A stretch of 64,000 nt of DNA from a virus. A program made the position numbers and the translations under genes. Of this stretch, positions 625 through 28,044 are shown one piece after another (the stretch's first letter is position 1; each line of letters begins with the position of its first letter). The stretch lies in IMG/VR virus record IMGVR_UViG_3300035670_000024. One strand, 5' to 3'. The notes beneath the pieces are model-generated. The model was not told where the DNA came from. It saw only the letters and a program-made list of their open reading frames with translations, and ran no database searches.

Positions 625-1095
625 TCAACTCCAATTGTTCTTATAAAATAATGGTTTGTCTGTGCAGATGCCATAACTTCTTTCTATATATTCTGGATTT
701 GAAAGGTATAAATCAGTATTTTCTGGTAAAACAATAACTGATTTAGAAAAGGGAATTTCCCCCACCAAAACCCATCCAATTCCTTTACTAGTCAAAGTAT
801 ATTTGTCTACATCATGCCAAAAATAATGAAAATTTATTGGAGCACTTGATAATTTTTCAAGTGCTTCTCTATTTTTACAATGAATCCAAAGTACATCTTT
901 ATACTTTCTTAACCATTCCATAGTGATAAAATATTGGGGACGATCATGCCCAAGATAGCATTGATCATCCCCAATAACCCATAAATCAATTTCAACATCA
1001 AATCCTTCAGAGATTGCTTCTTCAATATACTCAGTACTATTTTCTCTGAGTGGATTTGGTTCAGTTAAATTTCCCCGATGTGCAATAATTTTCAT
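625..1095 (-). CDS. Glycerophosphodiester phosphodiesterase (GDPD)-like short protein
   Basis: N-terminal IIAHRG, ENS, GFDVEIDLW, LGHD and C-terminal GICTD motifs of the GDPD/PLC-like fold. Confidence 0.75.
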   Translation of the reverse strand: MKIIAHRGNLTEPNPLRENSTEYIEEAISEGFDVEIDLWVIGDDQCYLGHDRPQYFITMEWLRKYKDVLWIHCKNREALEKLSSAPINFHYFWHDVDKYTLTSKGIGWVLVGEIPFSKSVIVLPENTDLYLSNPEYIERSYGICTDKPLFYKNNWS

Positions 1096-1103: not shown

Positions 1104-1871
1104 TCATCCAAATAAAACTCTTCTAAAATCTATGTTATTATTAATTCTAACAACAAAATTAAATCTTTTTAAAGGGACATTTGTAACCTTAAGATATTCA
1201 CTAAGCATGATTTCTGGTTGAAATGGGCAATCATGCAATTTTAGTAAATTATTATACAGGTTTGAATATATGTCCATTGAAAAAGAAGATCCTAATGCGA
1301 ATTGATCATTTATTCCTCCACACCAATCCTCACCATCTGGAATGTAAAGAGCATCTGTCATTTCACTGACATCTAATGTTTTACCCTCAAAATCACTATC
1401 AAATCTCATTCTTATTACACAATCAAAAAGCATATTGTTTTCAGTTTCATATTGTCTTTTTAATTCATTCGCTTTAAATATAGAATAATGCATACTTAAT
1501 GGCCCAATATCTTTTCTTGGGTATATTAATTCATGTGTATCTACATTTTTATTGTACCATTTCCTAGTTATTAAAGATTTTGGAGGTAATCTATTGTAGA
1601 TTAGTTCAAAATCACTCTTTTTTGTATCATAATTTTCTATCAATATTTTTTCATAATCAAATAAATCTATAATATTTGGAGATGTTTCTATGATTTTATC
1701 TAATTCTTTATGTTGGTATCCAAAAACAGTATTTAAGAATCCATCAAAATTTTTTATTTTCCAAGTATGAATAAAAATTTTGATATCATCATTTGGTATA
1801 ATATTTTCAATACTTTTAACTGCTATATGGGGATATCGCACACCACCAGAAATACATAATGCTATTTTCAT
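1104..1871 (-). CDS. Putative glycosyltransferase-like protein (paralog of 5477..6190)
   Basis: MKIALCISG, IFIHTW, SMHYSI, FDCVIRMRFD, GINDQFA motifs; type common in phage and polysaccharide loci. Confidence 0.55.
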   Translation of the reverse strand: MKIALCISGGVRYPHIAVKSIENIIPNDDIKIFIHTWKIKNFDGFLNTVFGYQHKELDKIIETSPNIIDLFDYEKILIENYDTKKSDFELIYNRLPPKSLITRKWYNKNVDTHELIYPRKDIGPLSMHYSIFKANELKRQYETENNMLFDCVIRMRFDSDFEGKTLDVSEMTDALYIPDGEDWCGGINDQFALGSSFSMDIYSNLYNNLLKLHDCPFQPEIMLSEYLKVTNVPLKRFNFVVRINNNIDFRRVLFG

Positions 1872-1941: not shown

Positions 1942-3147
1942 TTAATATTCATTTCTAGTTAATATTAATATCCAACTATTTGGATAAATTCCATTTCCCA
2001 TGATATGATGAGTATTAATTTTTTTTATTGAATCATAAAACTTATTATGCCCATATAGATTGATTTCTTCCATATAAGATTCAAAAGAATCCTCAGAAAG
2101 TAAACCTTCAATTATCAATATTCCACCGGGATTTAGATACTTATAAGCATTTCTAATAATTTTAATTCTAGACCAAAATGTATGATCAGAATCATCTATT
2201 AAGATATCAAATTTGGAATTGGATTTTTCAAATGCTTCACAAATTGATACTTCACTAGTTGCATCCATATAATCATATGAAGTATCTGGAAGATTATCTT
2301 CTTTTGCGCTTTGAAGTAAACTACTATCATTATCCCATCCATAAAGATGAGCATTAGAGAAGTATTCTCTCCAAATTTTCATTGATGAGTTTTTGTATAT
2401 TCCAATTTCTCCAAAATTAATCTGTTTGTATTTGAATGGAGAAAATAGAAGATTATAAAATGATGTGCAATAATTGGAATCTTTTTTAAATGAAAGTGTA
2501 GCGATGTATAGATTTACATTTTCCTGATAAAAACCTTGATGATGAGGTTGCTCGTATTCTTTTCTATACCTACTTGTTAACTTTAGTCCTGAAGATTCTA
2601 CGATTTTAATTATATTTTCAGGTGAAATAAATTCACCAGGATCTGGAGATAAGGTGACATCAGTGGAAATAAGTAATCTTCCGTTTGGTTTTAAGACTCT
2701 ATGAACTTCATCTGCAACATTTTTCCATCCCCAATTTTCAATACCATCTCCCCATGTAGGATTGAAACAGTGTACTGAGCAAGAATCAATTATAACATCT
2801 ACACTCTCCGGTTCCATTTGCTTTAGTTCATATAAAGCATCACCAAGAACCATTTTTGCTAATCCTTTTGGACACCAATGATCAACACTCATAAGATCTA
2901 TTCCAGTCACATCATTGCCCCAACTTGCAATGATGTGAGGAATTACTCCATTTGCAGATCCTAAGTCAATTACGGTTAAATTATTTTTTCCGATTGACTT
3001 GAATTCTTGTAATAATGACACCCATTTGACAATGGCTGCATCCTTGTCCCAAAATTCTCCCCGAAAACCTTTTTCAGGCCATTTTTCTTTTTTTAGTATA
3101 TCCTTACAGATAGAAACATCCTTAGATGTAATTAACTTATTGTACAT
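1942..3147 (-). CDS. Double-domain SAM methyltransferase (class I domain plus sugar O-methyltransferase-like domain)
   Basis: Domain 1: VIDLGSANG...VHRVLKPNG; domain 2: GEIGIYKNSSMKIWREYF...FDILIDDSDH...YLNPGGILIIE. Confidence 0.75.
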   Translation of the reverse strand: MYNKLITSKDVSICKDILKKEKWPEKGFRGEFWDKDAAIVKWVSLLQEFKSIGKNNLTVIDLGSANGVIPHIIASWGNDVTGIDLMSVDHWCPKGLAKMVLGDALYELKQMEPESVDVIIDSCSVHCFNPTWGDGIENWGWKNVADEVHRVLKPNGRLLISTDVTLSPDPGEFISPENIIKIVESSGLKLTSRYRKEYEQPHHQGFYQENVNLYIATLSFKKDSNYCTSFYNLLFSPFKYKQINFGEIGIYKNSSMKIWREYFSNAHLYGWDNDSSLLQSAKEDNLPDTSYDYMDATSEVSICEAFEKSNSKFDILIDDSDHTFWSRIKIIRNAYKYLNPGGILIIEGLLSEDSFESYMEEINLYGHNKFYDSIKKINTHHIMGNGIYPNSWILILTRNEY

Positions 3148-3158: not shown

Positions 3159-4397
3159 TCAAAAATCAAGAACCCATTCAGGAAGAGAACCGCCGCCAGT
3201 TTCATATCCCCACTTATCTATGGCATCACGAAACTCTTTACCTGGAGTCTTATCAATTGCCTGACGCATTGCTAAAGCACCCGATAAAGTGCCTCCTGGA
3301 TGACCATGAACCGCTCCACCACAATTAGCAAGAAAGTCAGTGCCAAACTTTTCTGCTGTAGTATTTACAATACCAGGATGCATACCACAACTTAGTGCGG
3401 GAAGCACATTTCTCTTATGTAGTGTTGCCATTGTCTGACGAAGTTCATCTTCATCATCACTTAAGTATCCACCCCACATTCCTGCATGAATTGTATCTAC
3501 ACCGCAAAGTCCTGCAAGATCACAGAGAACATCCCAATCAATACCAAATGCATGTCTCTTATCGGTAAGAATCTTATCACCACTCTTTTGATAATGAACA
3601 AATAAAGGTAGATCCATTTTTCTTACAGAATTATAAACTCCTAGACCACTCCAGAAGTTAATATGAATACCATTACCACCATTTTCTGCAACAAACTTAG
3701 CACGATCAAGAATTGTATGATGATCTCCATTAATACAGAAGCAATAGATCACTCCCCTTCCACAATTATTGACAATGTTGGAAATCAATTCTACACGATC
3801 CTCAAGACGGCAAAATGAAGGATTGGCAAGAATCTCATCTTCTTTAATGAAATCAACTCCACCATCCAGAAGTTCTTTGACCATTTCTGATAGAGTTTGT
3901 GGAGAAATGCCTGTTTTTGGTTTTACGATTGCCCCAGAAAGTGGTTTGTCATAGCGATTAACAAACTTACGAATTCCATCAATACCATTCTTAGGCCCTA
4001 GGAATTGTGCTTCCACATCGGCAGGAAATTCAAGTTTACGAAGACGGCAAACTTTAAATACATCAATATCTAATTGACCTCCCATCAATTGACAAAGAAG
4101 ATGTGAGATACCATCACCTTCCCAATCAGTATTTACTTTAGGAAATCCAATTTTAACTTCCCCTTCAGTCAACTGAGAAAGTTCATTTTCATCAGCATAG
4201 ATGACACAAGATGAAAGTTCAAAAAGTTCATCATTTTCCCAGCGATTACGAACTTTTGGATTCCCTACACTTTGTCCAATTGCGAGATTCCAAGCCGCAT
4301 CTTTTAATGTGCCAATATTTGAATATGATTCAATATAATAAGTTGCAATTACACAACGATTTTTTTCATATTCAGTTAGTTCTCTAAAGAATTTCAT
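3159..4397 (-). CDS. RuBisCO large-subunit-like protein (RLP, form IV-type; probably non-carboxylating)
   Basis: GPKNGIDGIR, IVKPKTG, GGVDFIKEDE, DTIHAG, PALSCGMHPG, GGAVHGHPGG follow the RbcL motif order over 412 aa. Confidence 0.93.
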   Translation of the reverse strand: MKFFRELTEYEKNRCVIATYYIESYSNIGTLKDAAWNLAIGQSVGNPKVRNRWENDELFELSSCVIYADENELSQLTEGEVKIGFPKVNTDWEGDGISHLLCQLMGGQLDIDVFKVCRLRKLEFPADVEAQFLGPKNGIDGIRKFVNRYDKPLSGAIVKPKTGISPQTLSEMVKELLDGGVDFIKEDEILANPSFCRLEDRVELISNIVNNCGRGVIYCFCINGDHHTILDRAKFVAENGGNGIHINFWSGLGVYNSVRKMDLPLFVHYQKSGDKILTDKRHAFGIDWDVLCDLAGLCGVDTIHAGMWGGYLSDDEDELRQTMATLHKRNVLPALSCGMHPGIVNTTAEKFGTDFLANCGGAVHGHPGGTLSGALAMRQAIDKTPGKEFRDAIDKWGYETGGGSLPEWVLDF

Positions 4398-4720
4398 GAT
4401 TCAACCTCAAATTTATCAGATGGAATAGACGGAATTTTAACTACCACTAAGGTACAATCTTCAAGAAAAATTGGATCAGCAACTTCTCCTTTTTCAAATA
4501 CAAATACATCCCCACTATTTAACTCATTTCCCTGAATGATCATTTTACCGGAAATAAGAACATTATATTCTATACTTTCCTTATGATAGTGAGGAGACCA
4601 ATATTCATCCTTTTTATGTTGTAGAATACCAACCTCAAAATCTTTGGTTTTAAACAGAGATGGTTCAAAATCTCCAATGAACCATCCACGAACATAATCA
4701 GTAATTTTTGTTATATTCAT
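4394..4720 (-). CDS. Cupin (RmlC-like) domain protein, possible sugar epimerase/isomerase
   Basis: GWFIGDFEP, HYHKESIEYNVLISG cupin metal motif, GDVFVFEKGE; ATGA overlap with RLP start. Confidence 0.75.
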   Translation of the reverse strand: MNITKITDYVRGWFIGDFEPSLFKTKDFEVGILQHKKDEYWSPHYHKESIEYNVLISGKMIIQGNELNSGDVFVFEKGEVADPIFLEDCTLVVVKIPSIPSDKFEVES

Positions 4721-5432
4721 ATTTTTTTAAATAATAATTTAAATCTTCTGGGACACCGACAGGATTATGTTGCCAAGTTGGGATTTGATGTATTCCAACT
4801 TTTCGGCCAAAATGTTTAATCATATAATTGTATGTTGGTCCAACATAGTATTCGCCATTAGGTGCTGTATCTTCAAACTGAATCATTTCTTGAGCACTTT
4901 CAACAAAGTAAAATCCTTTTCTCCAATAATGAATTCCGTTAAGAGATATGTTGCTAATGACCTCCTTCTCTTTCACCTCCAATACTAACCCATCTCTATC
5001 AATTTTGCAATAGCTGTTTTTGGGCGTGTCCGTTTCATAGGTGACTATGACTCCATCATACTTATAGTATCTTGCCGTTTGCAGAAATAATCCAGAATCC
5101 CACCACATTATTTGATCACAATTCGCAATAACCAATTCAGTATTATTATTAATTTCAGTTTCAAATAATAATGCACTACATGCTGGTCCTTTTGTAGTCT
5201 CATCAACTGTGATTATCTTACAATCTGGAACTATTTTTTTAAGCAATTCGTATATTTGAAAATAAAATGAATCTTGCCGAATTACAAAATGATATTTACC
5301 ATCAAGATTCATAGATTCAATTGCACATTGAATCATTGGTTTACCTTCAATTTCAATCAGTGGTTTAGGTAGATGGTATTTGTCTCTTGGAAATCTAGTT
5401 CCTTCTCCAGCCATCGGTATGACAATGTTCAT
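4698..5432 (-). CDS. Sugar-phosphate nucleotidyltransferase (NTP_transferase, GT-A fold)
   Basis: IVIPMAGEGTRF, PKPLI, IANCDQ, NGEYYV, GVPEDL. Confidence 0.85.
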   Translation of the reverse strand: MNIVIPMAGEGTRFPRDKYHLPKPLIEIEGKPMIQCAIESMNLDGKYHFVIRQDSFYFQIYELLKKIVPDCKIITVDETTKGPACSALLFETEINNNTELVIANCDQIMWWDSGLFLQTARYYKYDGVIVTYETDTPKNSYCKIDRDGLVLEVKEKEVISNISLNGIHYWRKGFYFVESAQEMIQFEDTAPNGEYYVGPTYNYMIKHFGRKVGIHQIPTWQHNPVGVPEDLNYYLKKYEYNKNY

Positions 5433-5476: not shown

Positions 5477-6190
5477 TCATCTATTATTAATAACAACTCT
5501 AAAATCAAATCTATTTACTGCTATGTTGTACATTTCAAAGTATTTGCGAAGCATAGTTTCTGGATGATATTGAACATCTCTAATTTTATCAATATGATTA
5601 TATAAATTAGAATACAAATTCATTGCATCTGAAGATCCTACAGCAAACTGATCATTAATGCCACCACACCAATCTTCTCCTCTTGGAATATTGATTCCAT
5701 TTGGAATGTTGTTTAGATGTAATTCATTTCCTCCAAAGTTACTATCAAATCTCATTCTAATCACTTTATCAAATATCATATTATTTTCTTTTTCATAATC
5801 ACATTTTAATTGATTGCTTTTATAAATTGAATAGTGCATACTAATTGGTCCAACATCATGCCTTGGAACTATACATGCCCCTTGCTGAAATGGGAGAAGA
5901 TTTATAGAATTATGAATTGCTTCAAATTCAGAATGCTTAGATTCATCATAATCTTCTATTAAAAGTTTTTCGTAATTGTAATGTTCTAAAAAATTAAATT
6001 GAGTTTCAAAAATGTTATCTGGTTCTTTACTTTGTAATCCAAAAATAGTTTTTAAAAAACTTTCTGTATCTACAATTTTCCAAGTATGAATAAAGATTTT
6101 GATACAATCATTAGGAACTATTTTTTTAATACTTTCTAGACCTATATGAGGATATCTTATATTTCCTGAAATGCAAATTGCTACTTTCAT
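5477..6190 (-). CDS. Putative glycosyltransferase-like protein (paralog of 1104..1871)
   Basis: MKVAICISG, IFIHTW, SMHYSI, FDKVIRMRFD, GEDWCGGINDQFA. Confidence 0.55.
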   Translation of the reverse strand: MKVAICISGNIRYPHIGLESIKKIVPNDCIKIFIHTWKIVDTESFLKTIFGLQSKEPDNIFETQFNFLEHYNYEKLLIEDYDESKHSEFEAIHNSINLLPFQQGACIVPRHDVGPISMHYSIYKSNQLKCDYEKENNMIFDKVIRMRFDSNFGGNELHLNNIPNGINIPRGEDWCGGINDQFAVGSSDAMNLYSNLYNHIDKIRDVQYHPETMLRKYFEMYNIAVNRFDFRVVINNR

Positions 6191-12244: not shown

Positions 12245-14263
12245 TTAAACTCCGAATACGATGCTGTATGAAATGGATTGTTCCGCTGTTACAAATGAAG
12301 TTGTTGGAGAACTGGTAGATTTAATTGCAACTCCAAAGAATACTTGTCCTGCTTTAGGTGCCTCAACAAAATTAATTTTGATTGGGTCAGTTGTTCTATT
12401 TGTACCACCACTAATATAAAAACCTGCAGTTTGTGATGGGTCTGGTTGTTGAACTATTCCTCCTACAGAAATAAGTAGTCGTGCTGCACTATCTATCTCA
12501 CTATTTATGAAATTACCTGAATTATCGGAAATGATAAATTGAGTTGTTGAACCATTAAAGAGTGAAGAAATATCATTCAAAATTACGGATTGATCAGGAA
12601 CAGATGCTGTTGACCCAACAGCACCTTGTAGACCTTGTAGACCCTGCGATCCTTGAAGACCTTGAACACTGCCAGCAAGACCTTGAACACCTTGATTTGC
12701 TAACCCTTGAAGACCTTGGAGACCTTGAGATCCTGATATACCTTGATTGCTAAGACCTTGAACACCTTGAGAACCTTGTGATCCTGAAGTTCCCTGAGAA
12801 CCTGAAGTACCTTGAGAACCAACACCTTGAGTTCCTTGTAATCCTTGAGATCCTTGAGATCCTTGAGATCCTGAAGTACCTTGAGAACCAACACCTTGAG
12901 TTCCTTGTAGTCCTTGAGAACCTTGAGAACCAGAAATACCTTGATTACTTAAACCCTGAGTACCCTGTAATCCTTGAGAACCTTGAGATCCTGATGTTCC
13001 TTGAGAACCAGAAATACCTTGATTACTTAAACCTTGAGTTCCTTGTAGTCCCTGTGAACCCTGAGAACCTGAAGTACCTTGTGATCCAGAAGTTCCTTGA
13101 TTACTTAAACCTTGCGTTCCTTGTCTACCCTGAAGTCCTTGAGCACCTTGAGATCCAGATGTTCCTTGAGATCCAGAAGTTCCCTGAGAACCTGAAGTAC
13201 CTTGAGAACCAACACCTTGAGTTCCTTGTAGTCCTTGAGAACCTTGAGAACCAGAAATACCTTGATTACTTAAACCTTGAGTTCCTTGCAGTCCTTGAGA
13301 TCCTGATGTACCTTGAGAACCAGAAATGCCTTGATTACTTAGACCTTGTGTACCTTGTAGTCCCTGAGAACCTTGCGATCCAGAAGTACCTTGGGAACCA
13401 GATGTTCCTTGAGATCCTGCTATACCTTGATTACTTAAACCTTGAGTTCCTTGTCTACCCTGAAGACCTTGAGAACCTTGAGATCCTGATGTACCTTGAG
13501 AACCAGAAATACCTTGATTACTTAAACCCTGAGTTCCTTGTAGTCCCTGTGAACCCTGAGATCCTGATACACCTTGATTACTTAATCCTTGATTACCTTG
13601 AACACCTTGTCTACCCTGAAGACCTTGAGAACCTTGTGATCCTGATGTTCCCTGAGATCCAGAAATACCTTGATTACTTAAACCTTGAATACCCTGTAAT
13701 CCTTGAAAACCTTGAGATCCAGAAATACCTTGATTACTTAAACCTTGAGTACCTTGATTTCCTTGTAATCCCTGTGATCCCTGAGATCCTGATGTACCTT
13801 GGGAACCAGAAATACCTTGATTACTTAAACCTTGAGTTCCTTGTCTTCCCTGTAATCCTTGAAACCCTTGAGAACCTAAAGTACCTTGATTACCTTGTAC
13901 TCCTTGACTTCCTGAAGAACCTTGAAGTCCTTGATCTCCACGAATTTGTCCTACATTATCCCAGTCAGTTCCCGTATAAACCCACAAATCACCAGTATTT
14001 TCCTCAATAACACCATCACCTGCAAAGGGAGGATACCAAGAAAATTGAGTATCGTCGTTAGTTAATGTAGTATGGGGTTCCGATGTAGTAACACTAGTAA
14101 CAACACCAACAATAGTTACAGAAGTTCCATCAGTACCAGATTTTCCCTGAACACCTTGATTTGAAAAACCTTGGATTCCCTGTTCACCGATTATTCCTTG
14201 AACACCTTGAGCGCCTTGATCGCCTTTAAATGTTCCTCCAATAATAGTACTTAGAAATGCCAC
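12245..14263 (-). CDS. Collagen-like (Gly-X-Gln) fibre protein
   Basis: Long GXQ tract with GLSNQ interruptions; C-terminal DISSLFNG..LLISVGGIVQQP domain; GTG start. Confidence 0.8.
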   Translation of the reverse strand: MAFLSTIIGGTFKGDQGAQGVQGIIGEQGIQGFSNQGVQGKSGTDGTSVTIVGVVTSVTTSEPHTTLTNDDTQFSWYPPFAGDGVIEENTGDLWVYTGTDWDNVGQIRGDQGLQGSSGSQGVQGNQGTLGSQGFQGLQGRQGTQGLSNQGISGSQGTSGSQGSQGLQGNQGTQGLSNQGISGSQGFQGLQGIQGLSNQGISGSQGTSGSQGSQGLQGRQGVQGNQGLSNQGVSGSQGSQGLQGTQGLSNQGISGSQGTSGSQGSQGLQGRQGTQGLSNQGIAGSQGTSGSQGTSGSQGSQGLQGTQGLSNQGISGSQGTSGSQGLQGTQGLSNQGISGSQGSQGLQGTQGVGSQGTSGSQGTSGSQGTSGSQGAQGLQGRQGTQGLSNQGTSGSQGTSGSQGSQGLQGTQGLSNQGISGSQGTSGSQGSQGLQGTQGLSNQGISGSQGSQGLQGTQGVGSQGTSGSQGSQGSQGLQGTQGVGSQGTSGSQGTSGSQGSQGVQGLSNQGISGSQGLQGLQGLANQGVQGLAGSVQGLQGSQGLQGLQGAVGSTASVPDQSVILNDISSLFNGSTTQFIISDNSGNFINSEIDSAARLLISVGGIVQQPDPSQTAGFYISGGTNRTTDPIKINFVEAPKAGQVFFGVAIKSTSSPTTSFVTAEQSISYSIVFGV

Positions 14264-14334
14264 GGTTTATCTTTTTATTTTTTATTATTTATTTAATAAT
14301 TATAATAATGAATTATAATAATGTTGTTGTTCAG

Positions 14335-16491
14335 TCATCCTTTCAATTCATTCAGTTGATTTTCAAGATTATTTATCTGCTTTTGTTGTTCTTTAATTGC
14401 TTCAATTAGAAGTGAAGTTAAGTTTCCGTAAGCAACTGACTTAATACCTGTGCTATCTTCCATAACAATTTCAGGAAGTACTTTTTCAACTTCTTGTGCA
14501 ATTACACCAACATATCTTCTTTCTTTATCTTCTTGGTCATTTCTATTAAATGTAACACCACGAATTTGAGAAACTTTATCTAATGCATTTGTAATGGTTT
14601 CAATATTTTCTTTGAGTTTGATATCAGAGTTTGCAGTGACTGTTCCAGATGCAGTTATATTTCCATTAGAACCTAAAGTAATAACTGCTGATCCACTTCT
14701 ATTTCCACCATAAATTTGTGTTCCACTTGAAAATCTCATTGCACAATAACCTGTATTCAGGTCTACAATATCACCATCATCTGCAAGAATAATTCCTCCA
14801 CCAGTTGCATTACCAGTTGATACTGTTAAATTTCCCGATAAACTTATATTAGAGGCATTGAAGTTTCCACCAATAGTAAGATCACTTGTACTTGGATTAA
14901 AACTAAATGCAGTTGTCGCCGTTCTTACTGATGGAGTTTGGTTAGTACCTGCAGCAGCGACAAATACTGGGAAAAACGATGCATTTGTGGTTACTGCTGT
15001 TGCATTTATTGCAGTAGAAGGGCCTGCAGTACCTACAGTTCCTTGAGCACCTGAAGTTCCTTGAGAACCAGATGTTCCTTGAGAACCTGATGTACCTTGA
15101 TTACTTAAACCTTGAGTACCTTGTCTACCCTGAAGACCTTGAGCACCTTGAGAACCTGCTGCACCTTGAGTACCTGATGTACCTTGAGCACCTGATGTAC
15201 CTTGAGCACCTGATGTACCTTGGAAACCTGCTGTACCTTGAGCACCTGAAGTTCCTTGAGAACCTGCTACACCTTGATTACTTAAACCCTGAGTACCTTG
15301 TCTACCCTGAAGTCCTTGAGCACCTTGAGATCCTGCTATACCTTGATTACTTAAACCCTGAGTACCTTGTCTACCCTGAAGTCCTTGAGCACCTTGAGAT
15401 CCTGCTATACCTTGATTGCTTAAACCTTGAACCCCTTGATTGCCTTGTAATCCTTGAGAACCTTGGGATCCTGATGTACCTTGAGAACCAGAAATACCTT
15501 GATTACTTAAACCTTGAGTTCCTTGTCTTCCCTGAAGTCCCTGAGCACCTTGAGAACCAGAAATACCTTGATTACTTAAACCTTGAGCACCTTGAGATCC
15601 TTGAGTACCTGATGCGCCTTGAGTACCTGATGTACCTTGAGAACCTGCTACACCTTGATTACTTAAACCTTGAGTACCTTGTCTACCCTGAAGACCTTGA
15701 GCACCTTGAGAACCTGCTGCACCTTGAGTACCTGATGTACCTTGAGCACCTGATGTACCTTGAGCACCTGATGTACCTTGGAAACCTGCTACACCTTGAT
15801 TACTTAAACCTTGAGCACCTTGATTTCCCTGCAATCCTTGAGATCCTTGAGAACCTGCTATACCTTGATTACTTAAACCTTGAGTTCCTTGTCTTCCCTG
15901 GAGACCTTGAGCGCCTTGGGATCCAGAAATACCTTGATTGCTTAAACCTTGAACCCCTTGATTGCCTTGTAATCCTTGAGAACCTTGGGATCCTGATGTA
16001 CCTTGATTACTTAAACCTTGAACCCCTTGATTGCCTTGTAATCCTTGATTTCCCTGAGAACCTATTGTTCCCTGATTTCCCTGTAATCCTTGAGATCCTT
16101 GAGAACCTGCTATACCTTGATTACTTAAACCTTGAGTTCCTTGTCTACCCTGAAGACCTTGATTACCTTGAACACCTTGATTGCTTAAACCTTGAACACC
16201 TTGATTACCCTGAAGACCTTGAACACCCTGATTTGATAATCCCTGTAGACCTTGATTTCCTTGTAATCCCTGAGAACCTTGAGATCCAGAAATGCCTTGA
16301 GATCCTTGATTACTTAAACCTTGTGTTCCTTGAGTACCTTGAGTACCTTGAAGACCTTGAGAACCAGAAGTGCCTTGAACACCTTCAGAAGGCATTAAAT
16401 CCCATGCTTCTCCATTAAACTTCCAGGTTCTACCCCCAAGAGAATATGTGGTTACATTTGCAATAGGGTTAATTGGAAAATCTAAAGGCAT
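14335..16491 (-). CDS. Collagen-like tail fibre with C-terminal Peptidase_S74 intramolecular chaperone
   Basis: GXQ tract then SDIKLKENI...IRGVTF...GVIAQEVEKVLPE...LLIEAIKE. Confidence 0.85.
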   Translation of the reverse strand: MPLDFPINPIANVTTYSLGGRTWKFNGEAWDLMPSEGVQGTSGSQGLQGTQGTQGTQGLSNQGSQGISGSQGSQGLQGNQGLQGLSNQGVQGLQGNQGVQGLSNQGVQGNQGLQGRQGTQGLSNQGIAGSQGSQGLQGNQGTIGSQGNQGLQGNQGVQGLSNQGTSGSQGSQGLQGNQGVQGLSNQGISGSQGAQGLQGRQGTQGLSNQGIAGSQGSQGLQGNQGAQGLSNQGVAGFQGTSGAQGTSGAQGTSGTQGAAGSQGAQGLQGRQGTQGLSNQGVAGSQGTSGTQGASGTQGSQGAQGLSNQGISGSQGAQGLQGRQGTQGLSNQGISGSQGTSGSQGSQGLQGNQGVQGLSNQGIAGSQGAQGLQGRQGTQGLSNQGIAGSQGAQGLQGRQGTQGLSNQGVAGSQGTSGAQGTAGFQGTSGAQGTSGAQGTSGTQGAAGSQGAQGLQGRQGTQGLSNQGTSGSQGTSGSQGTSGAQGTVGTAGPSTAINATAVTTNASFFPVFVAAAGTNQTPSVRTATTAFSFNPSTSDLTIGGNFNASNISLSGNLTVSTGNATGGGIILADDGDIVDLNTGYCAMRFSSGTQIYGGNRSGSAVITLGSNGNITASGTVTANSDIKLKENIETITNALDKVSQIRGVTFNRNDQEDKERRYVGVIAQEVEKVLPEIVMEDSTGIKSVAYGNLTSLLIEAIKEQQKQINNLENQLNELKG

Positions 16492-16543
16492 TTATTTATA
16501 TTGAATTACTAAATTCTTATTAAAAATATTTATTATCATAATC

Positions 16544-17380
16544 TTATACATCTCCAGTATTTGTGCTTGGAAAAGACCTTCCTGGACCCCAAATAATTCT
16601 AAGTGCTCCAACATCACCATTACCACCGTTACCATTATCCATACCACCTCCACCTCCACCATAATCTCCACCATCTCTTACTACACCAGAAGTTCCTCCA
16701 GAACCACCCCCACCTGGGTTAGCAGCACCACCAGTACCTCCAGTTCCACTAGAACCTTCGCCAAGTATTCCGGTTCCACCGCCACCGCCACCACCAGCGG
16801 CAGAAGAACCGCCACCACCGCCACCACCGCCATCACCATTTCCACCAGCACCATTCGCAGTTCCTCCTACTCCACCATTTCCAGAATATCCACCAGCACC
16901 GCCACCACCACCATTTTGAGATGCAGTTTCTTCACCACCATTGCCACCATCACCACCACCAATATCTCCACCAGTTGCCGTTCCTGTTCCACCAATACCT
17001 GCTGTGGTTGTAGTTCCTTCACCTCCCCCATCGGCTTGAAGTAAAATAGTTCCTCCTCTAGAAATTGATGTATTTCCTCCAGGTTGTCCAGAAGTATTGT
17101 TAGAAGTTGCTCCAGTTCCACCAGCACCCACTGTGACTGTAAGTTCCTCAAAGGGAGTTACTGGAATATTATTATAATATCTCAATCCTCCTCCACCACC
17201 ACCAGCAACTTCTGTGTTGTTTTGTCCACGAGCGCCGCCACCTCCACCACCTATAGCGACAACTGAAATTTGAGTAATTCCAGCCGGAACTGTAAATGTA
17301 AAAGTTCCTGGAGTTGTATATGCTTCTTGACCTGGAGCAGATGGATTGATAAATCCAAGTAAAATAGATGCTATTGTCAT
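16544..17380 (-). CDS. Glycine-rich virion protein (possible adhesin/fibre tip)
   Basis: YTTPGTFTFTVPAG..VVAIGGGGGG, poly-Gly tracts, C-terminal GALRIIWG. Confidence 0.7.
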   Translation of the reverse strand: MTIASILLGFINPSAPGQEAYTTPGTFTFTVPAGITQISVVAIGGGGGGARGQNNTEVAGGGGGGLRYYNNIPVTPFEELTVTVGAGGTGATSNNTSGQPGGNTSISRGGTILLQADGGGEGTTTTAGIGGTGTATGGDIGGGDGGNGGEETASQNGGGGGAGGYSGNGGVGGTANGAGGNGDGGGGGGGGSSAAGGGGGGGTGILGEGSSGTGGTGGAANPGGGGSGGTSGVVRDGGDYGGGGGGMDNGNGGNGDVGALRIIWGPGRSFPSTNTGDV

Positions 17381-17381
17381 A

Positions 17382-20300
17382 TTAAGTTAATCCTGCTCCC
17401 GAAATGATGAACACATCAGCATTATTTACATCAGCAACACAAAGAACGGTACAAACACCATAAGCACCAAGAGTTCTATTTCCTGTTTGAGTTGTACCAG
17501 CATATCTTAAAGTCACATTAGAACCTTGAGTAATTGTTTGTGCAACTGCAGAGTCATTATAAATCACCACATTTTCTCCTACTTGGAATACATTGACGGG
17601 AACTGTTACACCACCAGTAGTAATATCAATATGTTTTCCATTATCTGATGCTTGAAGAACATATGATGTTGTTTGAACATTTTGCGGAATTGTTGCAGGA
17701 CCAAATGTTCCTTGGTTTCCTTGAAGTCCTTGTGTACTTTGAATACCTTGAAGACCTTGAACACCCTGAACACCCTGATCTCCTTGTAATCCTTGAACCC
17801 CTTGATTGCCTTGTAATCCTTGATTTCCCTGAGAACCTATTGTTCCTTGATTTCCCTGTAGTCCTTGAGAACCTTGAGAACCAGAAATACCTTGATTACT
17901 TAAACCTTGAGTTCCTTGTCTACCCTGAAGACCTTGAGATCCTTGATTACTTAAACCTTGAACCCCTTGATTTCCTTGTAATCCTTGAGAACCTTGAGAT
18001 CCTATTGTTCCTTGATTTCCCTGTAGTCCTTGGGAACCTTGAGAACCAGAAATACCTTGATTACTTAAACCTTGAGTTCCTTGTCTTCCCTGCAATCCTT
18101 GAGAACCTTGATTACTTAAACCTTGAACACCTTGATTGCCCTGAAGACCTGTTGGGCCTGTTGGTTCTGGTCCAAACTCAACCCATTGTTGACTATTTCC
18201 ATCATTATAATAACGATATGTAACCCCGGTATTTTCATTAATCCAAATATCCCCAACAACTGAAGATATTCCTGCAGATGATGGTTGGATATAAGTTCTC
18301 GGTGCCCATCTAGTTGCTCCAGATGCTGTAGATACTATTATTGAACCTGCAATTCCTACATTATTGAAACTATCATAAACAGAACCTCTAATTCTAATAT
18401 TTCCATTTACATCCAAACTTTGTGTTGGAATAGAAGTTCCGATTCCTACAGAACCTAATCCACTTACTACAAGAGAAGGTGAAGCAAAAAGTGCTGTAGT
18501 CAGTCCAGAATTTACTGTTGAGAGACCTATGTAATAAGGTTTAGTTTCTACTGAAGAAATATTATAAAAAGTAGAAATACCTGATCCACCTTCACTAGCA
18601 TTTCCTGCGGGGCCTTGAACACCTTGAACACCTTGATTTGATAATCCTTGAGTACCTTGTCTACCTTGAAGACCTTGAGAACCTTGATTACTTAAACCTT
18701 GAACCCCTTGATTGCCTTGAAGACCTTGAGCACCTGAAGTTCCTTGAGAACCTGAAGTTCCTTGAGAACCTGAAGTTCCTTGAGAACCTGAAGTTCCTTG
18801 AGAACCTGAAGTTCCTTGATTACTTAAACCTTGAGTTCCTTGTCTGCCTTGGAGACCTTGAGCACCTTGAGAACCTGAAGTTCCTTGAGAACCTGAAGTT
18901 CCTTGAGAACCTGAAGTTCCTTGAGAACCTGAAGTTCCTTGATTACTTAAACCTTGAGCACCTTGATTTCCCTGCAATCCCTGTGAACCTTGAGCACCTG
19001 AAGTTCCTTGAGATCCAGATGTTCCTTGAGCACCTGAAGTTCCTTGAGATCCAGATGTTCCTTGAGCGCCTGAAGTTCCCTGAGAACCAAATGTTCCTTG
19101 AGAACCTGCTATACCTTGATTACTTAAACCTTGAGTTCCTTGTCTTCCCTGGAGACCTTGAGCACCTTGAGATCCAGAAATACCTTGATTGCTTAAACCT
19201 TGATTACCTTGTAATCCCTGCGAACCTTGAGAACCAGAGATACCTTGATTACTTAATCCTTGAACTCCTTGATTTCCCTGAAGACCCTGAGCACCTTGAT
19301 TTCCTTGTAACCCTTGAGAACCTTGAGATCCTAATGTACCTTGAGCACCTGAAGTTCCTTGAGATCCTATTGTTCCCTGCAAACCTTGAGTTCCTTGATT
19401 ACCTTGTAATCCTTGAAGACCTTGAGTTCCTTGATTACCTTGTAATCCTTGAAGACCTTGAGATCCTGAAGTACCTTGATTACCCTGAACACCTTGATTA
19501 CTTAAACCTTGAGTTCCTTGTCTGCCTTGGAGACCTTGGGAACCTTGATTACTTAAACCCTGAACACCCTGCAATCCTTGAGAACCTTGAGATCCAGAAG
19601 TACCTTGTGAACCTGATATACCTTGAGAACCAGTATCTCCTTTATCTCCTGTTCTAGCGAAAGTGATGATAATATCTTCGTTAGAACTAAATGAAGTTGC
19701 ACTACCGGAAACATATGAACAATCAACTTCAAAATATCCAGTTTGTTCTATAATTCCGGAAATAGTGAAAAGTGCAAAATCAGAAGAATCAAACTTATTT
19801 GAAATTCTAAAATGACCTTTAATAGTTGATGTAGAATCATCAATTGTTCTTAGGAATGATTGGATATCAGTTGTTCCATCGTTTTGATCATCAATATAAA
19901 GTTTATTTGCAAGAGTTATATTAGAATTATTAAACTTAAGATTTCCAGTTCCTGGATCAATATTTGTAGTATCAGTATTAAAAGTATAATCAAAAGTAGC
20001 ACCACCAAAGTTTCCATCTTTACCAGAAAGTCCTTGCAAACCTTGAGAACCAGAAGTACCCTGTGTTCCTTGATTACCTTGGACACCTTGATTGCTTAAA
20101 CCTTGAACACCTTGATTTCCTTGTAGTCCCTGTGATCCCTGAGATCCTGAAGTTCCTTGAGTTCCTTGTAGTCCCTGTGATCCTTGTGTTCCTTGATTAC
20201 CTTGAACACCTTGATTGCTTAGACCTTGGACACCTTGAGAACCTTGAGATCCTGATGTACCCTGTAATCCTTGAGTTCCCTGATTACCTTGTAAACCTTG

Positions 20301-21770: not shown

Positions 21771-21779
21771 TTGAAGATA

Positions 21780-22109
21780 TTAATTGAGGGTTTCTAAGAT
21801 GCTTGCGACAAATTTTAAATTGCTGGCATTACTACCTGATAATACTAATTTATCTCCACTTTCAAGAACCAATTTTCCAGAAAGAAGATTCGCAGTATCA
21901 TTTGCTGAAATTGGAAATTCTTTTAACATTTCAGTATCAGTTGATGATCTGCGATGAGTTAGAGAAACATCTTCATTTGTTGATCCGATGTTTGCAACTT
22001 GCGCTAAAAGAACAACACCTGTATATCCAACAGGAGCAGTATAAATTGAAGTTGCACTTGTGCCTACAACTGAAGTAACTGTTTTAAAAACATTAAGTGC
22101 TAATGCCAT
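21780..22109 (-). CDS. Small virion protein (paralog of 31189..31548)
   Basis: ALNVFKT..IYTAPVG..VLLAQVAN..LVLESGD..SILET. Confidence 0.7.
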   Translation of the reverse strand: MALALNVFKTVTSVVGTSATSIYTAPVGYTGVVLLAQVANIGSTNEDVSLTHRRSSTDTEMLKEFPISANDTANLLSGKLVLESGDKLVLSGSNASNLKFVASILETLN

Positions 22110-22113
22110 TGTA

Positions 22114-25002: not shown

Positions 25003-25027
25003 ATTATCTTATTGGTATTTACCTTCA

Positions 25028-25051
25028 AAAAACTCTTATGTAAGAGTTTTT
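25028..25051. promoter_or_regulatory. Inverted repeat AAAAACTCTTA-TG-TAAGAGTTTTT (hairpin/terminator-like) just downstream of late promoter ATAAATA (25054-25060, minus strand)
   Basis: Perfect 11-bp arms read directly. Confidence 0.5.
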
Positions 25052-25056
25052 ATTAT

Positions 25057-25266
25057 TTATGAAAAATCTTCTTCTATCTTTGATACCTTTTTAGACTTCT
25101 TCATTTTTTCAATTTCTTCATTTAAATCATTAATTTTTCTATTTAATGCTTCAATTAGTTGATTTGAATTCATTAATCTTGCTTCAAGTGCAATTGTTTG
25201 TGCGGTTAAATCACTTACCTTTTGTTGGTATACTGAGAGAAGATTTTTAATTTCTTGTTCGTTCAT
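25057..25266 (-). CDS. Small coiled-coil protein
   Basis: Heptad pattern; start re-assigned to MNEQEIK because a CTAAATA late promoter lies at 25287-25293. Confidence 0.6.
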   Translation of the reverse strand: MNEQEIKNLLSVYQQKVSDLTAQTIALEARLMNSNQLIEALNRKINDLNEEIEKMKKSKKVSKIEEDFS

Positions 25267-25299
25267 TTCAATTAAAATTTCTATCCTATTTAGAGACAT

Positions 25300-25325
25300 A
25301 AAAAAGAGGAGGATTTCTCCTCCTC
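25300..25325 (-). terminator. Rho-independent terminator
   Basis: Stem GAGGAGGA / TCCTCCTC with 4-nt loop, followed by T6 on the minus strand, right after the stop of the 643-aa gene. Confidence 0.85.
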
Positions 25326-25349
25326 GTATAAAGACTTAAATATTAATTA

Positions 25350-27281: not shown

Positions 27282-27379
27282 ATTTTCCTTTGATTGATAA
27301 TTTGACTAGCTAGTACAAAAATTCACATCAAATTATTAATATGAGCAAATTAAAAAACATCATTACTAATATTTATTTC

Positions 27380-27685
27380 TTAAAATTCTCCAGCATCAAC
27401 ATCAATTTTATTATCTAAATCAATATCTAGTTGATTAGTAAAATTAGCAGGCAATCCTGGTTGAATCGGTTCACTTGTAGCTGCAGAAAGAACTTCATCT
27501 GGATTTACTAATTTATATAATCCAGTTGAGGAATCATACATAACAACATACTTATCCTTCTTATCAGTTTCTGTAATGCCAACATCAATAAGATCTTGCA
27601 GTTTTGCAGGCACTTGAAGACCTCCTATAGTTGATACTACTTTAAAGGAATTTTGAGAACTTAATCTTACATTAAAATCGGTCAT
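27380..27685 (-). CDS. Hypothetical virion-associated protein
   Basis: 101 aa, ends DAGEF; ATGA overlap with upstream gene. Confidence 0.6.
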   Translation of the reverse strand: MTDFNVRLSSQNSFKVVSTIGGLQVPAKLQDLIDVGITETDKKDKYVVMYDSSTGLYKLVNPDEVLSAATSEPIQPGLPANFTNQLDIDLDNKIDVDAGEF

Positions 27686-28044
27686 AATGATGCGGTGTCA
27701 GAAACAATAATTGATCCTTCAACGACCTTTCTAGTTAAAAATGTAACTCCAATTCCATTTGGATTTTGAGTTGGCCCAGTAACTAAAATATCAAAATAAT
27801 TTCTTCCAGATTCTAATAGTTCTGTCGTAGTTTTTGCCATAGAAATTACAACTTCTCCAGTGGCACCAATAATCTCAACTGTAAACTCTTGAAATTTTGG
27901 AGAAGATGGATATTTTCTTATCTTTGCTTTCCCAGAATAATACTGAGAAAAAACATAATTTGATGAATCCGACTGAAGAACTTTAAATTTTGCATCAAAG
28001 TCAGTTCCTTTTTCAAGTACTAAATTGACTACAGCAACTGCCAT
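27682..28044 (-). CDS. Small Ig-like virion/baseplate adaptor protein
   Basis: NLVLEKGTDF..AKIRK..GRNYFDIL..VEG pattern; late promoter CTAAATA at 28064-28070. Confidence 0.6.
   Translation of the reverse strand: MAVAVVNLVLEKGTDFDAKFKVLQSDSSNYVFSQYYSGKAKIRKYPSSPKFQEFTVEIIGATGEVVISMAKTTTELLESGRNYFDILVTGPTQNPNGIGVTFLTRKVVEGSIIVSDTASL

What the first reader, a model, noticed from the sequence alone, without database searches (positions are those of the whole stretch)
3159..4397. RLP active site keeps the metal/enolisation core but lacks the carboxylation residues
By-eye alignment to spinach RbcL numbering. Retained: K175/K177 (VKPK), K201-x-D203-E204 (KEDE), H327 (IHAG), S379 and G403/G404. Changed: E60->G (IGQSVGN), the N123 region (MGGQ), H294/R295->Q/K (VHYQK), loop-6 K334->Y (GMWGGYL) and G380->C. 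This predicts carbamate/Mg-dependent enolate chemistry with a remodelled second phosphate site and no CO2 fixation, possibly defining a new RLP subfamily.
Basis: partly seen in the sequence, partly recalled or inferred. Interest (0 to 1): 0.7.

Follow-up and report, generated by a model that had tools for sequence, protein, structure and literature searches.

The report
Non-carboxylating RuBisCO-like enzyme in phage
A marine T4-like phage carries an intact relative of the CO2-fixing enzyme RuBisCO that keeps the metal-binding core but has lost the residues needed to add CO2; it always travels with, and is sometimes fused to, a sugar-activating enzyme, so it probably helps build an unusual activated sugar, a job never tested for this enzyme family.

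Summary
Window 3159-4397 (minus strand) encodes a 412-aa RuBisCO large-subunit homologue. K175, K177, K201, D203, E204, H327, S379, G381, G403 and G404 are kept. E60G, N123G, H294Q, R295K, K334Y and G380C are changed. I add T65N, W66P, H298D and D268N.

These changes are not drift. They are invariant or nearly so in 102 non-redundant relatives down to 35% identity, and they mark one well-supported clade separate from forms I-III, MtnW, DeepYkr-like and OiaX-like groups.

The clade is not new. It matches the phage 'Form IV-like' RLPs of Jaffe et al. 2019, whose function is unknown, and this scan has met the same cassette before on other DNA.

The gene sits in a T4-like myovirus, translationally coupled to a cupin and a nucleotidyltransferase (NTase). 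RLP and NTase are neighbours in 76/80 viral and 38/42 cellular loci. Natural RLP-NTase and RLP-NTase-cupin fusions exist.

Best reading: a Mg/carbamate-dependent enolising enzyme in a nucleotide-activated sugar pathway for surface glycans, not a carboxylase. The substrate is unknown.

The parts
3159..4397 (-). RuBisCO-like protein (RLP), 412 aa, 'Form IV-like' clade
   Evidence: ORF. Pfam PF00016 146 bits. Below all NCBIfam cut-offs. AF2 pLDDT 95.6. VIA Z 44.3 to form III 2cwx and Z 39.5 to spinach 1aa1.
4257..4277 (-). GQSVGNP loop of the N-domain (E60->G41, T65->N46, W66->P47)
   Evidence: G41, Q42, S43, G45, N46 and P47 are at least 97% conserved in the family.
4077..4085 (-). MGG (N123->G107)
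   Evidence: Invariant.
3915..3929 (-). IVKPK, end of barrel strand 1 (K175=K159, K177=K161)
3834..3854 (-). DFIKEDE, end of strand 2: carbamate lysine K185 and Mg ligands D187 and E188
3657..3665 (-). HIN on strand 4: family-specific invariant H245, and N247 in place of D268
   Evidence: bona fide RuBisCOs have M (11/11) and D (10/11) here; the family has H (21/21) and N (21/21).
3576..3596 (-). HYQKSGD, end of strand 5 (H294->Q270, R295->K271, H298->D274; new S272-G273)
3465..3488 (-). HAGMWGGY, strand 6 and loop 6 (H327=H304, K334->Y311)
3384..3392 (-). SCG, end of strand 7 (S379=S336, G380->C337, G381=G338)
3315..3320 (-). GG, end of strand 8 (G403/G404, P1 phosphate site)
4394..4720 (-). 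Small cupin (108 aa). Its stop codon overlaps the RLP start codon (ATGA).
   Evidence: Overlap. Weak Cupin_7 hit. phrog_24762. Atlas neighbours are Cupin_2/MannoseP_isomer-like. Present in 65/80 viral loci. Fused to RLP-NTase in P0275 and P0276.
4698..5432 (-). Sugar-phosphate nucleotidyltransferase-like protein (244 aa). Overlaps the cupin gene by 23 nt.
   Evidence: NTP_transf_3 and weak NCBIfam RmlA/GlmU-type hits. PDB 4evw. Next to the RLP in 76/80 viral and 38/42 cellular loci. Fused to the RLP in P0123, P0275 and P0276.
625..1095 (-). Miniature GDPD-like phosphodiesterase (156 aa)
   Evidence: HRG, EN, ExD and HD motifs invariant or nearly so. AF2 pLDDT 97. All top Foldseek hits are GDPDs. 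64 cluster members of 135-175 aa start with the HRG motif; the mixed single-linkage cluster holding them occurs in 68/80 viral and 15/42 cellular loci.
1942..3147 (-). Double methyltransferase directly downstream of the RLP (variable accessory gene)
   Evidence: Present in only some related loci.

Best explanation
The gene encodes a functional, non-carboxylating member of the RuBisCO large-subunit superfamily, in the clade published as 'Form IV-like'.

Shown here: it has the full two-domain RuBisCO fold. It keeps the carbamate lysine, both Mg ligands, K175/K177 and the P1 phosphate glycines. The residues that serve CO2 addition and C-C cleavage are replaced by a different, invariant set: G41, N46-P47, G107, Q270 with N247, Y311 on loop 6, C337, and a new H245.

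Inferred: the enzyme binds a phosphorylated keto-sugar through Mg2+ and a carbamylated K185. It forms an enediolate, as all RuBisCO-family enzymes do, and resolves it by proton transfer (isomerisation, epimerisation or tautomerisation) rather than by carboxylation. Y311, H245 and perhaps C337 would be the new acid/base residues.

Inferred from gene linkage and fusions: it acts in one short pathway with the co-translated nucleotidyltransferase and cupin, and often with a mini-GDPD phosphodiesterase. The pathway would deliver a nucleotide-activated unusual sugar or polyol-phosphate to surface-glycan transferases. The phage copy belongs to a clade shared with SAR11-type marine bacteria and sits in the phage's glycan island next to the tail-fibre genes.

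Open: the substrate, and whether the RLP acts before or after nucleotidylation.
For: Fold: AF2 pLDDT 95.6, pTM 0.93. Foldseek TM 0.86-0.87 to form III. VIA Z 44.3, 43.4 and 39.5 to form III, MtnW and spinach.

Residue map.

Invariance: 102 non-redundant sequences, 35-95% identical. All 80 viral loci carry open full-length frames unless cut by a contig end.

Discrete clade: the signature is present in every full-length representative down to 172 bits, and then the hits switch abruptly to canonical RuBisCO or other RLP patterns. The family is one side of a branch with SH-aLRT 99.

Roles of the lost residues: K334 and K177 hydrogen-bond the CO2-derived carboxylate of 2CABP, and H294 with D268 is proposed as a proton relay (bioRxiv 10.64898/2025.12.22.696010). 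That K334, E60 and N123 mutants lose carboxylation while keeping enolisation is my own recollection of the site-directed mutagenesis literature.

Linkage: ATGA overlap with the cupin gene. RLP and NTase are neighbours in 76/80 viral and 38/42 cellular loci spanning SAR11, DPANN, Verrucomicrobia, Elusimicrobia, Spirochaetes, Bacteroidota and Legionella.

Fusions: RLP-NTase (P0123, a cluster of 128 members including Tara Oceans samples). RLP-NTase-cupin (P0275, P0276).

Glycan context: in a complete Pelagibacter chromosome the cassette lies beside the 23S rRNA gene among GT9, HAD-NTP_transferase and CTP_transf_3 genes. LicD is syntenic with it in three Legionella species.
Against: No biochemical data exist for any member. 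No substrate can be deduced from sequence.

The residue mapping rests on sequence alignment plus secondary-structure placement in a predicted model, not on superposed coordinates.

Gene linkage shows a shared pathway, not the order of steps or the chemistry.

K177 and R295 (as K) are retained, and both can bind a carboxylate or phosphate. A carboxylated or bisphosphorylated substrate is therefore not excluded.

The cupin and GDPD partners are absent from many cellular loci, so the pathway is not uniform.
Confidence: 0.7

Rival explanations
1. It is a methionine-salvage RLP. Either it is an MtnW-type DK-MTP-1-P enolase, or it is a DeepYkr-type 5-methylthioribulose-1-P 1,3-isomerase working with the adjacent cupin as a methylsulfurylase (the MTA-isoprenoid shunt).
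For: RLP and cupin are adjacent genes in R. palustris (RPA2169/RPA2170) and act consecutively there (PMC5893883). The window's RLP is also coupled to a small cupin. The structural match to MtnW is as high as to form III (Z 43.4).
Against: NCBIfam MtnW models score 167.6 and 125.6 bits against cut-offs of 409 and 513.6.

The MtnW clade pattern (lysine at the N123 position, H294 kept, R295->P, K334->S) differs at most sites. The family is separated from the MtnW and DeepYkr-like groups by a branch with support 99.

The complete Pelagibacter and Verrucomicrobiae chromosomes that carry the cassette have no IF-2B/MtnA gene to make methylthioribulose-1-P.

The invariant partner is a nucleotidyltransferase, which has no role in those pathways.
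Confidence: 0.06
2. It is an enolate-forming decarboxylase or transcarboxylase/hydrolase acting on a phosphorylated 3-oxo-acid sugar, like the OiaX/OiaT RLPs of apiose catabolism. On this reading its role is catabolic rather than biosynthetic.
For: The NCBIfam OiaX model gives a partial hit (151 bits). K177 and a basic residue at position 295 are retained and could hold a carboxylate. Some other RLP groups also carry Tyr at the K334 position.
Against: The OiaX score is far below the cut-off of 700. OiaX-like representatives fall in another clade. The context is glycan biosynthesis (NTase, GTs, LicD, methyltransferases), with no kinases, dehydrogenases or transporters of a catabolic operon. Fusion to an NTase argues for an anabolic role.
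Confidence: 0.1
3. It is a real, perhaps weak, RuBP carboxylase related to form III that gives the phage a CO2-fixing or nucleotide-salvage (AMP pathway) step.
For: Its best curated-model and structural matches are to form III RuBisCO. K175, K177, K201, D203 and E204 are all kept.
Against: E60, N123, H294, K334, T65, W66 and H298 are all replaced, invariantly across the family. The form III model scores 194 bits against a cut-off of 497. No PRK or small subunit is on the contig, although it is a fragment. The complete carrier genomes have no IF-2B-type R15P isomerase.
Confidence: 0.03
4. It is a catalytically dead scaffold or structural protein that merely keeps the RuBisCO fold.
For: No activity has ever been shown. 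The gene lies near virion genes.
Against: The metal/carbamate triad and 56 columns, mostly at barrel strand ends, are at least 97% conserved from phages to Legionella. The protein is fused to enzymes, not to structural domains. It has no PHROG structural family.
Confidence: 0.03

Closest known systems
'Form IV-like' RuBisCO-related proteins of phages and Beckwithbacteria (Jaffe, Castelle, Dupont & Banfield 2019, Mol Biol Evol; PMC6389311)
   Same: Both are encoded on IMG/VR phage contigs, some of them Myoviridae. Both are highly divergent from other RLPs, branch outside all other RLP clades, and lack several key residues. Function is unknown in both (versus).
   Different: That paper reports no gene context, no NTase or cupin linkage or fusions, and no SAR11 or Legionella members. 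Identity of the two sets could not be checked sequence by sequence, because the figure logos and supplements are not held.
Form III RuBisCO (P. horikoshii 2cwx, T. kodakarensis 3a12)
   Same: Best sequence and fold match: 138 bits, TM 0.86-0.87, Z 44.3. Shares K175, K177, the carbamate/Mg triad, I at the T173 position, and the P1 glycines.
   Different: Lacks E60, T65, W66, N123, H294, D268, H298, K334 and G380. Scores 194 bits against a cut-off of 497. Not a carboxylase by any sequence criterion.
DeepYkr RLP plus cupin methylsulfurylase of the MTA-isoprenoid shunt (R. rubrum, R. palustris; PMC5893883)
   Same: An RLP gene directly beside a small cupin gene whose product acts on the RLP's product. 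Both use enediolate proton-transfer chemistry on a ketose monophosphate.
   Different: Different clade and active-site pattern. Carrier genomes lack MtnA. There is an additional obligate NTase partner. Homology of the two cupins was not tested, as no reference sequence was available.
MtnW/YkrW DK-MTP-1-P enolase (B. subtilis 2zvi, G. kaustophilus 2oem)
   Same: A non-carboxylating RLP with an intact carbamate/Mg core and P1 site. The fold match is equal (Z 42-43).
   Different: The base lysine at the N123 position is replaced by G107. K177, H294, R295, H327 and K334 all differ. Below the family cut-offs.
Bifunctional PMI-GMP enzymes (AlgA/ManC type: NTP_transferase plus C-terminal cupin isomerase); own knowledge
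   Same: The NTase-linker-cupin order seen in the fusions P0275 and P0276. The cupin's nearest named neighbours include MannoseP_isomer-type cupins.
   Different: No RLP takes part in GDP-mannose synthesis. The NTase here matches no curated equivalog. This is an analogy only.

Membership tests
RuBisCO large-subunit superfamily (fold level) | Pfam PF00016 catalytic domain above the gathering score | tested here: met
   146.1 bits against a cut-off of 30.1.
RuBisCO large-subunit superfamily (fold level) | N-terminal alpha/beta domain plus C-terminal TIM barrel, superposable on solved structures | tested here: met
   AF2 pLDDT 95.6. VIA Z 44.3, rmsd 1.9 A over 376 residues to 2cwx. Z 39.5, rmsd 2.0 A over 377 residues to spinach 1aa1.
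RuBisCO large-subunit superfamily (fold level) | K201-x-D203-E204 carbamate/Mg motif | tested here: met
   K185, D187 and E188 are invariant in 102 sequences.
Bona fide RuBisCO (forms I-III) | All canonical catalytic and substrate-binding residues (E60, T65, W66, N123, K175, K177, K201, D203, E204, H294, R295, H298, H327, K334, S379, G380, G381, G403, G404) | tested here: not met
   The pattern is GNPGKKKDEQKDHYSCGGG against the canonical ETWNKKKDEHRHHKSGGGG in the same alignment columns.
Bona fide RuBisCO (forms I-III) | Score above the curated NCBIfam cut-off for form III, form II or the large-subunit subfamily | tested here: not met
   194.4 against 497; 106.3 against 489; 186.3 against 438.
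Bona fide RuBisCO (forms I-III) | RuBP carboxylase activity | not testable with these tools
   Needs a 14CO2 fixation assay.
MtnW/YkrW DK-MTP-1-P enolase | Score above the NF007095 or TIGR03332 cut-off | tested here: not met
   167.6 against 409; 125.6 against 513.6. A true member (P0220) scores 652.
MtnW/YkrW DK-MTP-1-P enolase | Lysine at the N123 position (the catalytic base, from my own knowledge of Imker et al. 2007) and the clade pattern GSWKK...HPSLSSAGGG | tested here: not met
   G107 is invariant. The pattern differs at 9 of 19 sites.
DeepYkr RLP (MTRu-1-P 1,3-isomerase) | Placement in the DeepYkr/YkrW part of the tree | tested here: not met
   The family is on the other side of a branch with SH-aLRT 99 from the MtnW and MtnW-nearest (P0215-type) groups. 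The labelling of the DeepYkr group is itself indirect.
DeepYkr RLP (MTRu-1-P 1,3-isomerase) | MtnA (IF-2B family) in the genome to supply the substrate | tested here: not met
   No match in the complete Pelagibacter (G001) or Verrucomicrobiae (G002) chromosomes. Present but unlinked in Turneriella.
DeepYkr RLP (MTRu-1-P 1,3-isomerase) | Adjacent cupin gene | tested here: met
   ATGA-coupled cupin. Homology to the methylsulfurylase cupin was not tested.
OiaX 3-oxo-isoapionate-4-P decarboxylase | Score above the NF042437 cut-off | tested here: not met
   151.1 against 700.
'Form IV-like' phage RLP clade (Jaffe et al. 2019) | Encoded on phage contigs from IMG/VR, including myoviruses | tested here: met
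   The window lies in an IMG/VR record. It has a T4-like baseplate and tail module. 228 IMG/VR contigs carry relatives.
'Form IV-like' phage RLP clade (Jaffe et al. 2019) | Branches outside all other RLP clades | tested here: met
   One side of a branch with support 99 against form III, MtnW, OiaX-like and other groups. The tree is unrooted.
'Form IV-like' phage RLP clade (Jaffe et al. 2019) | Groups with the Beckwithbacteria sequences and shares the published residue logo | not testable with these tools
   Figures and supplements are not held. No CPR names appeared among cluster members.
IV-GOS RLP clade (Tabita et al. 2007; recalled from memory) | Identity with the GOS-derived RLP sequences and their residue pattern | not testable with these tools
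   The papers are not held. The GOS paper only states that 65 GOS RuBisCO homologues cluster with no known form.

The most novel reading that the evidence does not exclude
This clade catalyses a RuBisCO-superfamily reaction not yet described. It would be the committed enolisation, isomerisation or epimerisation step that, with the fused or linked nucleotidyltransferase and cupin, makes a previously unknown nucleotide-activated sugar or polyol-phosphate. That product would decorate the surface glycans of SAR11 and other bacteria and archaea. T4-like marine phages would carry the pathway to remodel the host surface or their own virions. If so, one of the most abundant RuBisCO relatives in the ocean would be a glycan-biosynthesis enzyme.
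Probability: 0.5. Interest if true: 0.8.

Novelty: new member of a known kind. Interest (0 to 1): 0.55.

Why it matters
RuBisCO-like proteins are a textbook case of a fold re-used for new chemistry, and only a handful of their reactions are known, all in sulfur/methionine salvage or sugar-acid catabolism.

This clade is abundant. It occurs on at least 228 viral contigs. One 90%-identity cluster has 478 members. It also sits in SAR11, next to the 23S rRNA gene among surface-glycan genes.

It has an invariant, unique active-site signature, and it is physically fused to a nucleotidyltransferase and a cupin in nature. That gives a concrete, cheap experimental route to a new RLP function: express the natural triple fusion and look for a new NDP-linked product. 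It could also reveal a surface-sugar pathway relevant to phage-host recognition in the ocean's most numerous bacteria.

For this particular finding, the active-site reading is correct, but the clade has been in the literature since 2019.

Tried and rejected
Contexts were obtained instead from the search for related loci and from my own ORF clustering.
- No PHROG family matches the RLP. No tblastn match appears in 50,697 deposited phage genomes, and no nucleotide match for the first 20 kb of the window.
- Tabita et al. 2007/2008 could not be read, so the IV-GOS comparison rests on memory only. Jaffe et al.'s supplements are not held.
- Literature searches found nothing relevant for RLP with nucleotidyltransferase, pelagimyophage with RuBisCO, or RLP with Pelagibacter.
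- Sequence searches of the cupin and the 156-aa protein against the PDB gave only insignificant hits. The 156-aa fold was resolved only after modelling.
- Source names of deep-branching representatives did not reveal CPR/Beckwithbacteria.
- PRK and RbcS are absent from the contig, but it is about 34% complete, so this is weak evidence.
- Host assignment failed. A structural protein is only 32-36% identical to cyanomyovirus and pelagiphage proteins.
- I considered reading the large upstream ORFs as a PKS/NRPS cluster. I rejected this when they proved to be collagen-like tail fibres and baseplate proteins.
Full report
**What is at the coordinates.** Window 3159-4397 holds one ORF on the minus strand: 412 aa, ATG start, kept as P0001. 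Pfam places it in RuBisCO_large at 146 bits against a cut-off of 30. Every curated NCBIfam model is missed by a wide margin: form III 194/497, large-subunit subfamily 186/438, MtnW 168/409 and 126/514, OiaX 151/700, form II 106/489.

**Genomic setting.** The surrounding DNA is not cellular. The window lies in a 72-kb IMG/VR virus record that CheckV rates about 34% complete. It encodes a T4-like baseplate hub, tail tube, tube cap, wedge and head-closure proteins. It also carries four collagen-like fibres with S74 chaperone domains. A conserved tail protein is only 32-36% identical to those of cyanomyoviruses and a Pelagibacter phage, so the host is not identified.

**Check of the observation.** HMMER aligns P0001 over residues 10-383 with the form III RuBisCO of P. 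horikoshii (2cwx, 138 bits). From that alignment and the motif positions the map is:
- Retained: K175=K159, K177=K161, K201=K185, D203=D187, E204=E188, H327=H304, S379=S336, G381=G338, G403/404=G360/361.
- Changed: E60->G41, T65->N46, W66->P47, N123->G107, H294->Q270, R295->K271, H298->D274, K334->Y311, G380->C337.

An independent MAFFT alignment of 114 cluster representatives validates these columns. Eleven bona fide RuBisCOs read exactly ETWNKKKDEHRHHKSGGGG there, while P0001 reads GNPGKKKDEQKDHYSCGGG. T65N, W66P and H298D are additions. T173->I is not a departure, because form III enzymes also carry I there.

**Structure.** An AlphaFold2 model built on a 65-sequence alignment is very confident (pLDDT 95.6, pTM 0.93). 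It superposes on form III RuBisCO (Foldseek TM 0.86-0.87; VIA Z 44.3, rmsd 1.9 A over 376 residues). It matches MtnW (Z 43.4), the C. tepidum RLP (Z 41.3) and spinach RuBisCO (Z 39.5, rmsd 2.0 A over 377 residues, model 1-397 onto chain 22-463) almost as well. The N-domain is thus present even though Pfam's N-domain model does not score.

In the model the mapped residues lie where they should:
- K159/K161 just after strand 153-157.
- K185/D187/E188 at the end of strand 183-185.
- Q270 at the end of strand 266-270.
- H304 on strand 302-306, with Y311 in the 307-315 loop (loop 6).
- S336-C337-G338 after strand 332-335.
- G360-G361 after strand 356-359.

**The substitutions are a signature, not decay.** I collected the gene from 80 viral and 42 cellular loci. 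In 102 non-redundant sequences at 35-95% identity, G41, N46, P47, G107, K159, K161, K185, D187, E188, Q270, Y311, S336, C337 and G338 are invariant. K271 is K in all but eight sequences (S or R). H304 is H in 91 and Q in 11. In all, 56 columns are at least 97% conserved.

Family-specific invariants that bona fide enzymes lack include Q42, D110, C117, H245, N247, S272-G273 and M307. One pair is notable. A recent atomic-resolution study proposes an H294-D268 proton relay in spinach RuBisCO, and shows K334 and K177 hydrogen-bonding the CO2-derived carboxylate of 2CABP (bioRxiv 10.64898/2025.12.22.696010). In this family both relay partners are replaced by amides (Q270, N247). A new invariant histidine (H245) appears two residues earlier on strand 4, where RuBisCOs have Met. 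That pattern looks like a relocated acid/base residue, which is my inference.

**Clade status.** An exhaustive HMMER search of 1.84 billion cluster representatives gave 89 hits at or below 1e-30. Every full-length hit down to 172 bits carries the signature. The next hits are canonical RuBisCOs or other RLP patterns. In a maximum-likelihood tree of 137 sequences, the 46 signature-bearing rows form one side of a branch with SH-aLRT 99. NCBIfam scans label the other groups as MtnW (P0220, 652 bits), MtnW-nearest or DeepYkr-like (P0215), OiaX-like (P0185, 431 bits) and near-form III (P0155).

So this is a discrete RLP subfamily, but not an unreported one. Jaffe et al. (bioRxiv 10.1101/386292; Mol Biol Evol 2019, PMC6389311) described about 80-90 'Form IV-like' RLPs on IMG/VR phage contigs, some of them Myoviridae. 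Those sequences branch outside all other RLPs, have divergent key residues, and have no assigned function. I could not compare sequences directly, but the source, the placement and the description all match. The 2007 GOS paper had already noted 65 ocean RuBisCO homologues that cluster with no known form. Whether these are Tabita's IV-GOS clade could not be checked.

**Context and partners.** The RLP start codon overlaps the stop codon of a 108-aa cupin gene (ATGA). That gene in turn overlaps a 244-aa nucleotidyltransferase (NTase) gene by 23 nt. A tblastn survey and an all-against-all clustering of 1,809 neighbouring ORFs show the following:
- NTase beside the RLP in 76/80 viral and 38/42 cellular loci.
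- Cupin in 65 viral and at least 8 cellular loci.
- The cluster that holds the 156-aa protein in 68 viral and 15 cellular loci.

The cellular carriers include a complete Pelagibacter chromosome, SAR11 single-cell genomes, DPANN archaea, Verrucomicrobia, Elusimicrobia, Turneriella, Bacteroidota, Francisellaceae and three Legionella species.

Nature has also fused these genes. P0123 is RLP-NTase; its cluster has 128 members from independent samples including Tara Oceans. P0275 and P0276 are RLP(1-390)-NTase(398-637)-linker-cupin(711-815), and P0123, P0275 and P0276 all keep the family's signature motifs.

The 156-aa partner keeps the GDPD catalytic set (HRG, EN, ExD, HD) invariant or nearly so. 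It models confidently (pLDDT 97), and its top structural matches are all glycerophosphodiester phosphodiesterases. I read it as a miniature GDPD-type phosphodiesterase.

In the Pelagibacter chromosome the cassette lies directly beside the 23S rRNA gene, among GT9, HAD-NTP_transferase, CTP_transf_3 and 2-hydroxyacid dehydrogenase genes. From my own knowledge, that position corresponds to SAR11 hypervariable region 2, a surface-glycan island. In Legionella a LicD-family phosphotransferase is syntenic with the pair. In the phage the cassette is flanked by methyltransferases and two DUF7796 paralogues.

**How it most likely works.**

Shown: an intact RuBisCO fold. A conserved carbamate/Mg triad, K175/K177 and the P1 phosphate site. 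Coordinated replacement of the carboxylation-side residues. Obligate linkage and fusion to an NTase and a cupin. A glycan-locus context.

Inferred: the enzyme binds a phosphorylated 2-keto-3-hydroxy compound on Mg2+ and carbamylated K185. It forms the enediolate and resolves it by proton transfer, with Y311 on the mobile loop 6 and H245 as candidate acid/base groups. The product (or substrate) is then coupled to an NMP by the NTase, and the cupin isomerises or epimerises a neighbouring intermediate. The NTase-linker-cupin order recalls AlgA/ManC-type PMI-GMP enzymes (my own knowledge; the cupin's nearest named neighbours include MannoseP_isomer cupins). The LicD neighbour in Legionella would fit a CDP-alcohol-type donor.

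I cannot tell whether the RLP acts on the free sugar phosphate or on the nucleotide-linked form. The replacement of E60, W66 and N123 by G, P and G would open space next to the P1 phosphate, which is compatible with either. The second-site residues vary within the family: K/R/S at position 295, D/E/I/A at 298, H/Q at 327. The H292 equivalent is H in cupin-associated loci and F in mostly cupin-less ones. This suggests substrate subtypes, although relatedness confounds the correlation.

**Rivals.**
- A carboxylase reading fails on residues, curated scores and the lack of a RuBP supply route.
- A methionine-salvage reading has a real precedent for RLP plus cupin (PMC5893883). It fails on clade, on signature, on the absence of MtnA from two complete carrier genomes, and on the unexplained NTase.
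- An OiaX-like decarboxylase chemistry cannot be excluded on residues alone, but it does not fit the anabolic context.
- A dead scaffold is contradicted by the conservation pattern.

**Earlier notes of this scan.** After reaching the reading above, I found that the scan has noted this cassette many times on other DNA: 82 notes in at least 52 genomes, with follow-ups reaching similar conclusions. A note on this same window had flagged the GDPD-like protein. I treat these notes as leads. The cassette, the fusions and the GDPD fold were all tested here independently.

**Verdict.** As a finding it is a further member of a published but functionally blank clade. Its value lies in the precise invariant signature and in the linkage evidence, which make the function directly testable.

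Noticed in passing
P0181 and P0207 (protein representatives, not in the window): P0181 is a TIR-domain protein fused to a divergent RuBisCO-like domain (583 aa; pattern DTWAKRFDECRQHKSGGGS). P0207 shares its pattern type and is its sister in the tree. This could be a defence-type architecture using the RuBisCO fold.
   Followed up: no
P0162 and P0168 (protein representatives): Natural fusions of an IF-2B domain (R15P/MTR-1-P isomerase family) to a RuBisCO with all 19 canonical residues, about 730 aa. This would put the AMP-pathway isomerase and the carboxylase in one chain.
   Followed up: no
window 625-1095 (-): A 156-aa miniature GDPD-type phosphodiesterase that keeps the whole HRG/EN/ExD/HD catalytic set in about 60% of the usual domain length. 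It is conserved in phages and SAR11.
   Followed up: partly
RLP family alignment (loci L002-L123): The H292-equivalent residue is H in cupin-associated loci (58 of 84 have a cupin) and F in 20 cellular, mostly cupin-less loci (2 of 20 have one). This hints at two functional subtypes, but relatedness was not controlled for.
   Followed up: partly
window 12245-31186 (-): Four large collagen-repeat proteins (672-1462 aa), two of them ending in a Peptidase_S74 intramolecular chaperone domain. These are probably tail fibres.
   Followed up: no
window 25350-27281 (-): A 643-aa protein whose first 36 residues match the N-terminal domain of the Bordetella phage major tropism determinant (Mtd_N, 29 bits). 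I did not look for a diversity-generating retroelement.
   Followed up: no
window 1104-1871 (-) and 5477-6190 (-): Two paralogous DUF7796/phrog_13607 proteins flank the RLP cassette. Relatives occur in 42 of 80 viral loci and in none of the cellular loci. Their function is unknown; they may be transferases.
   Followed up: no
L082:12491-17131 (Pelagibacter sp. Uisw_094 chromosome): The cellular RLP cassette starts about 1.3 kb from the 23S rRNA gene of the 16S-tRNA-tRNA-23S operon. It lies among GT9, HAD-NTP_transferase and CTP_transf_3 genes.
   Followed up: partly
window 43687-44355 (-): A 2OG-Fe(II) oxygenase gene sits inside the structural module, between the baseplate and fibre genes.
   Followed up: no
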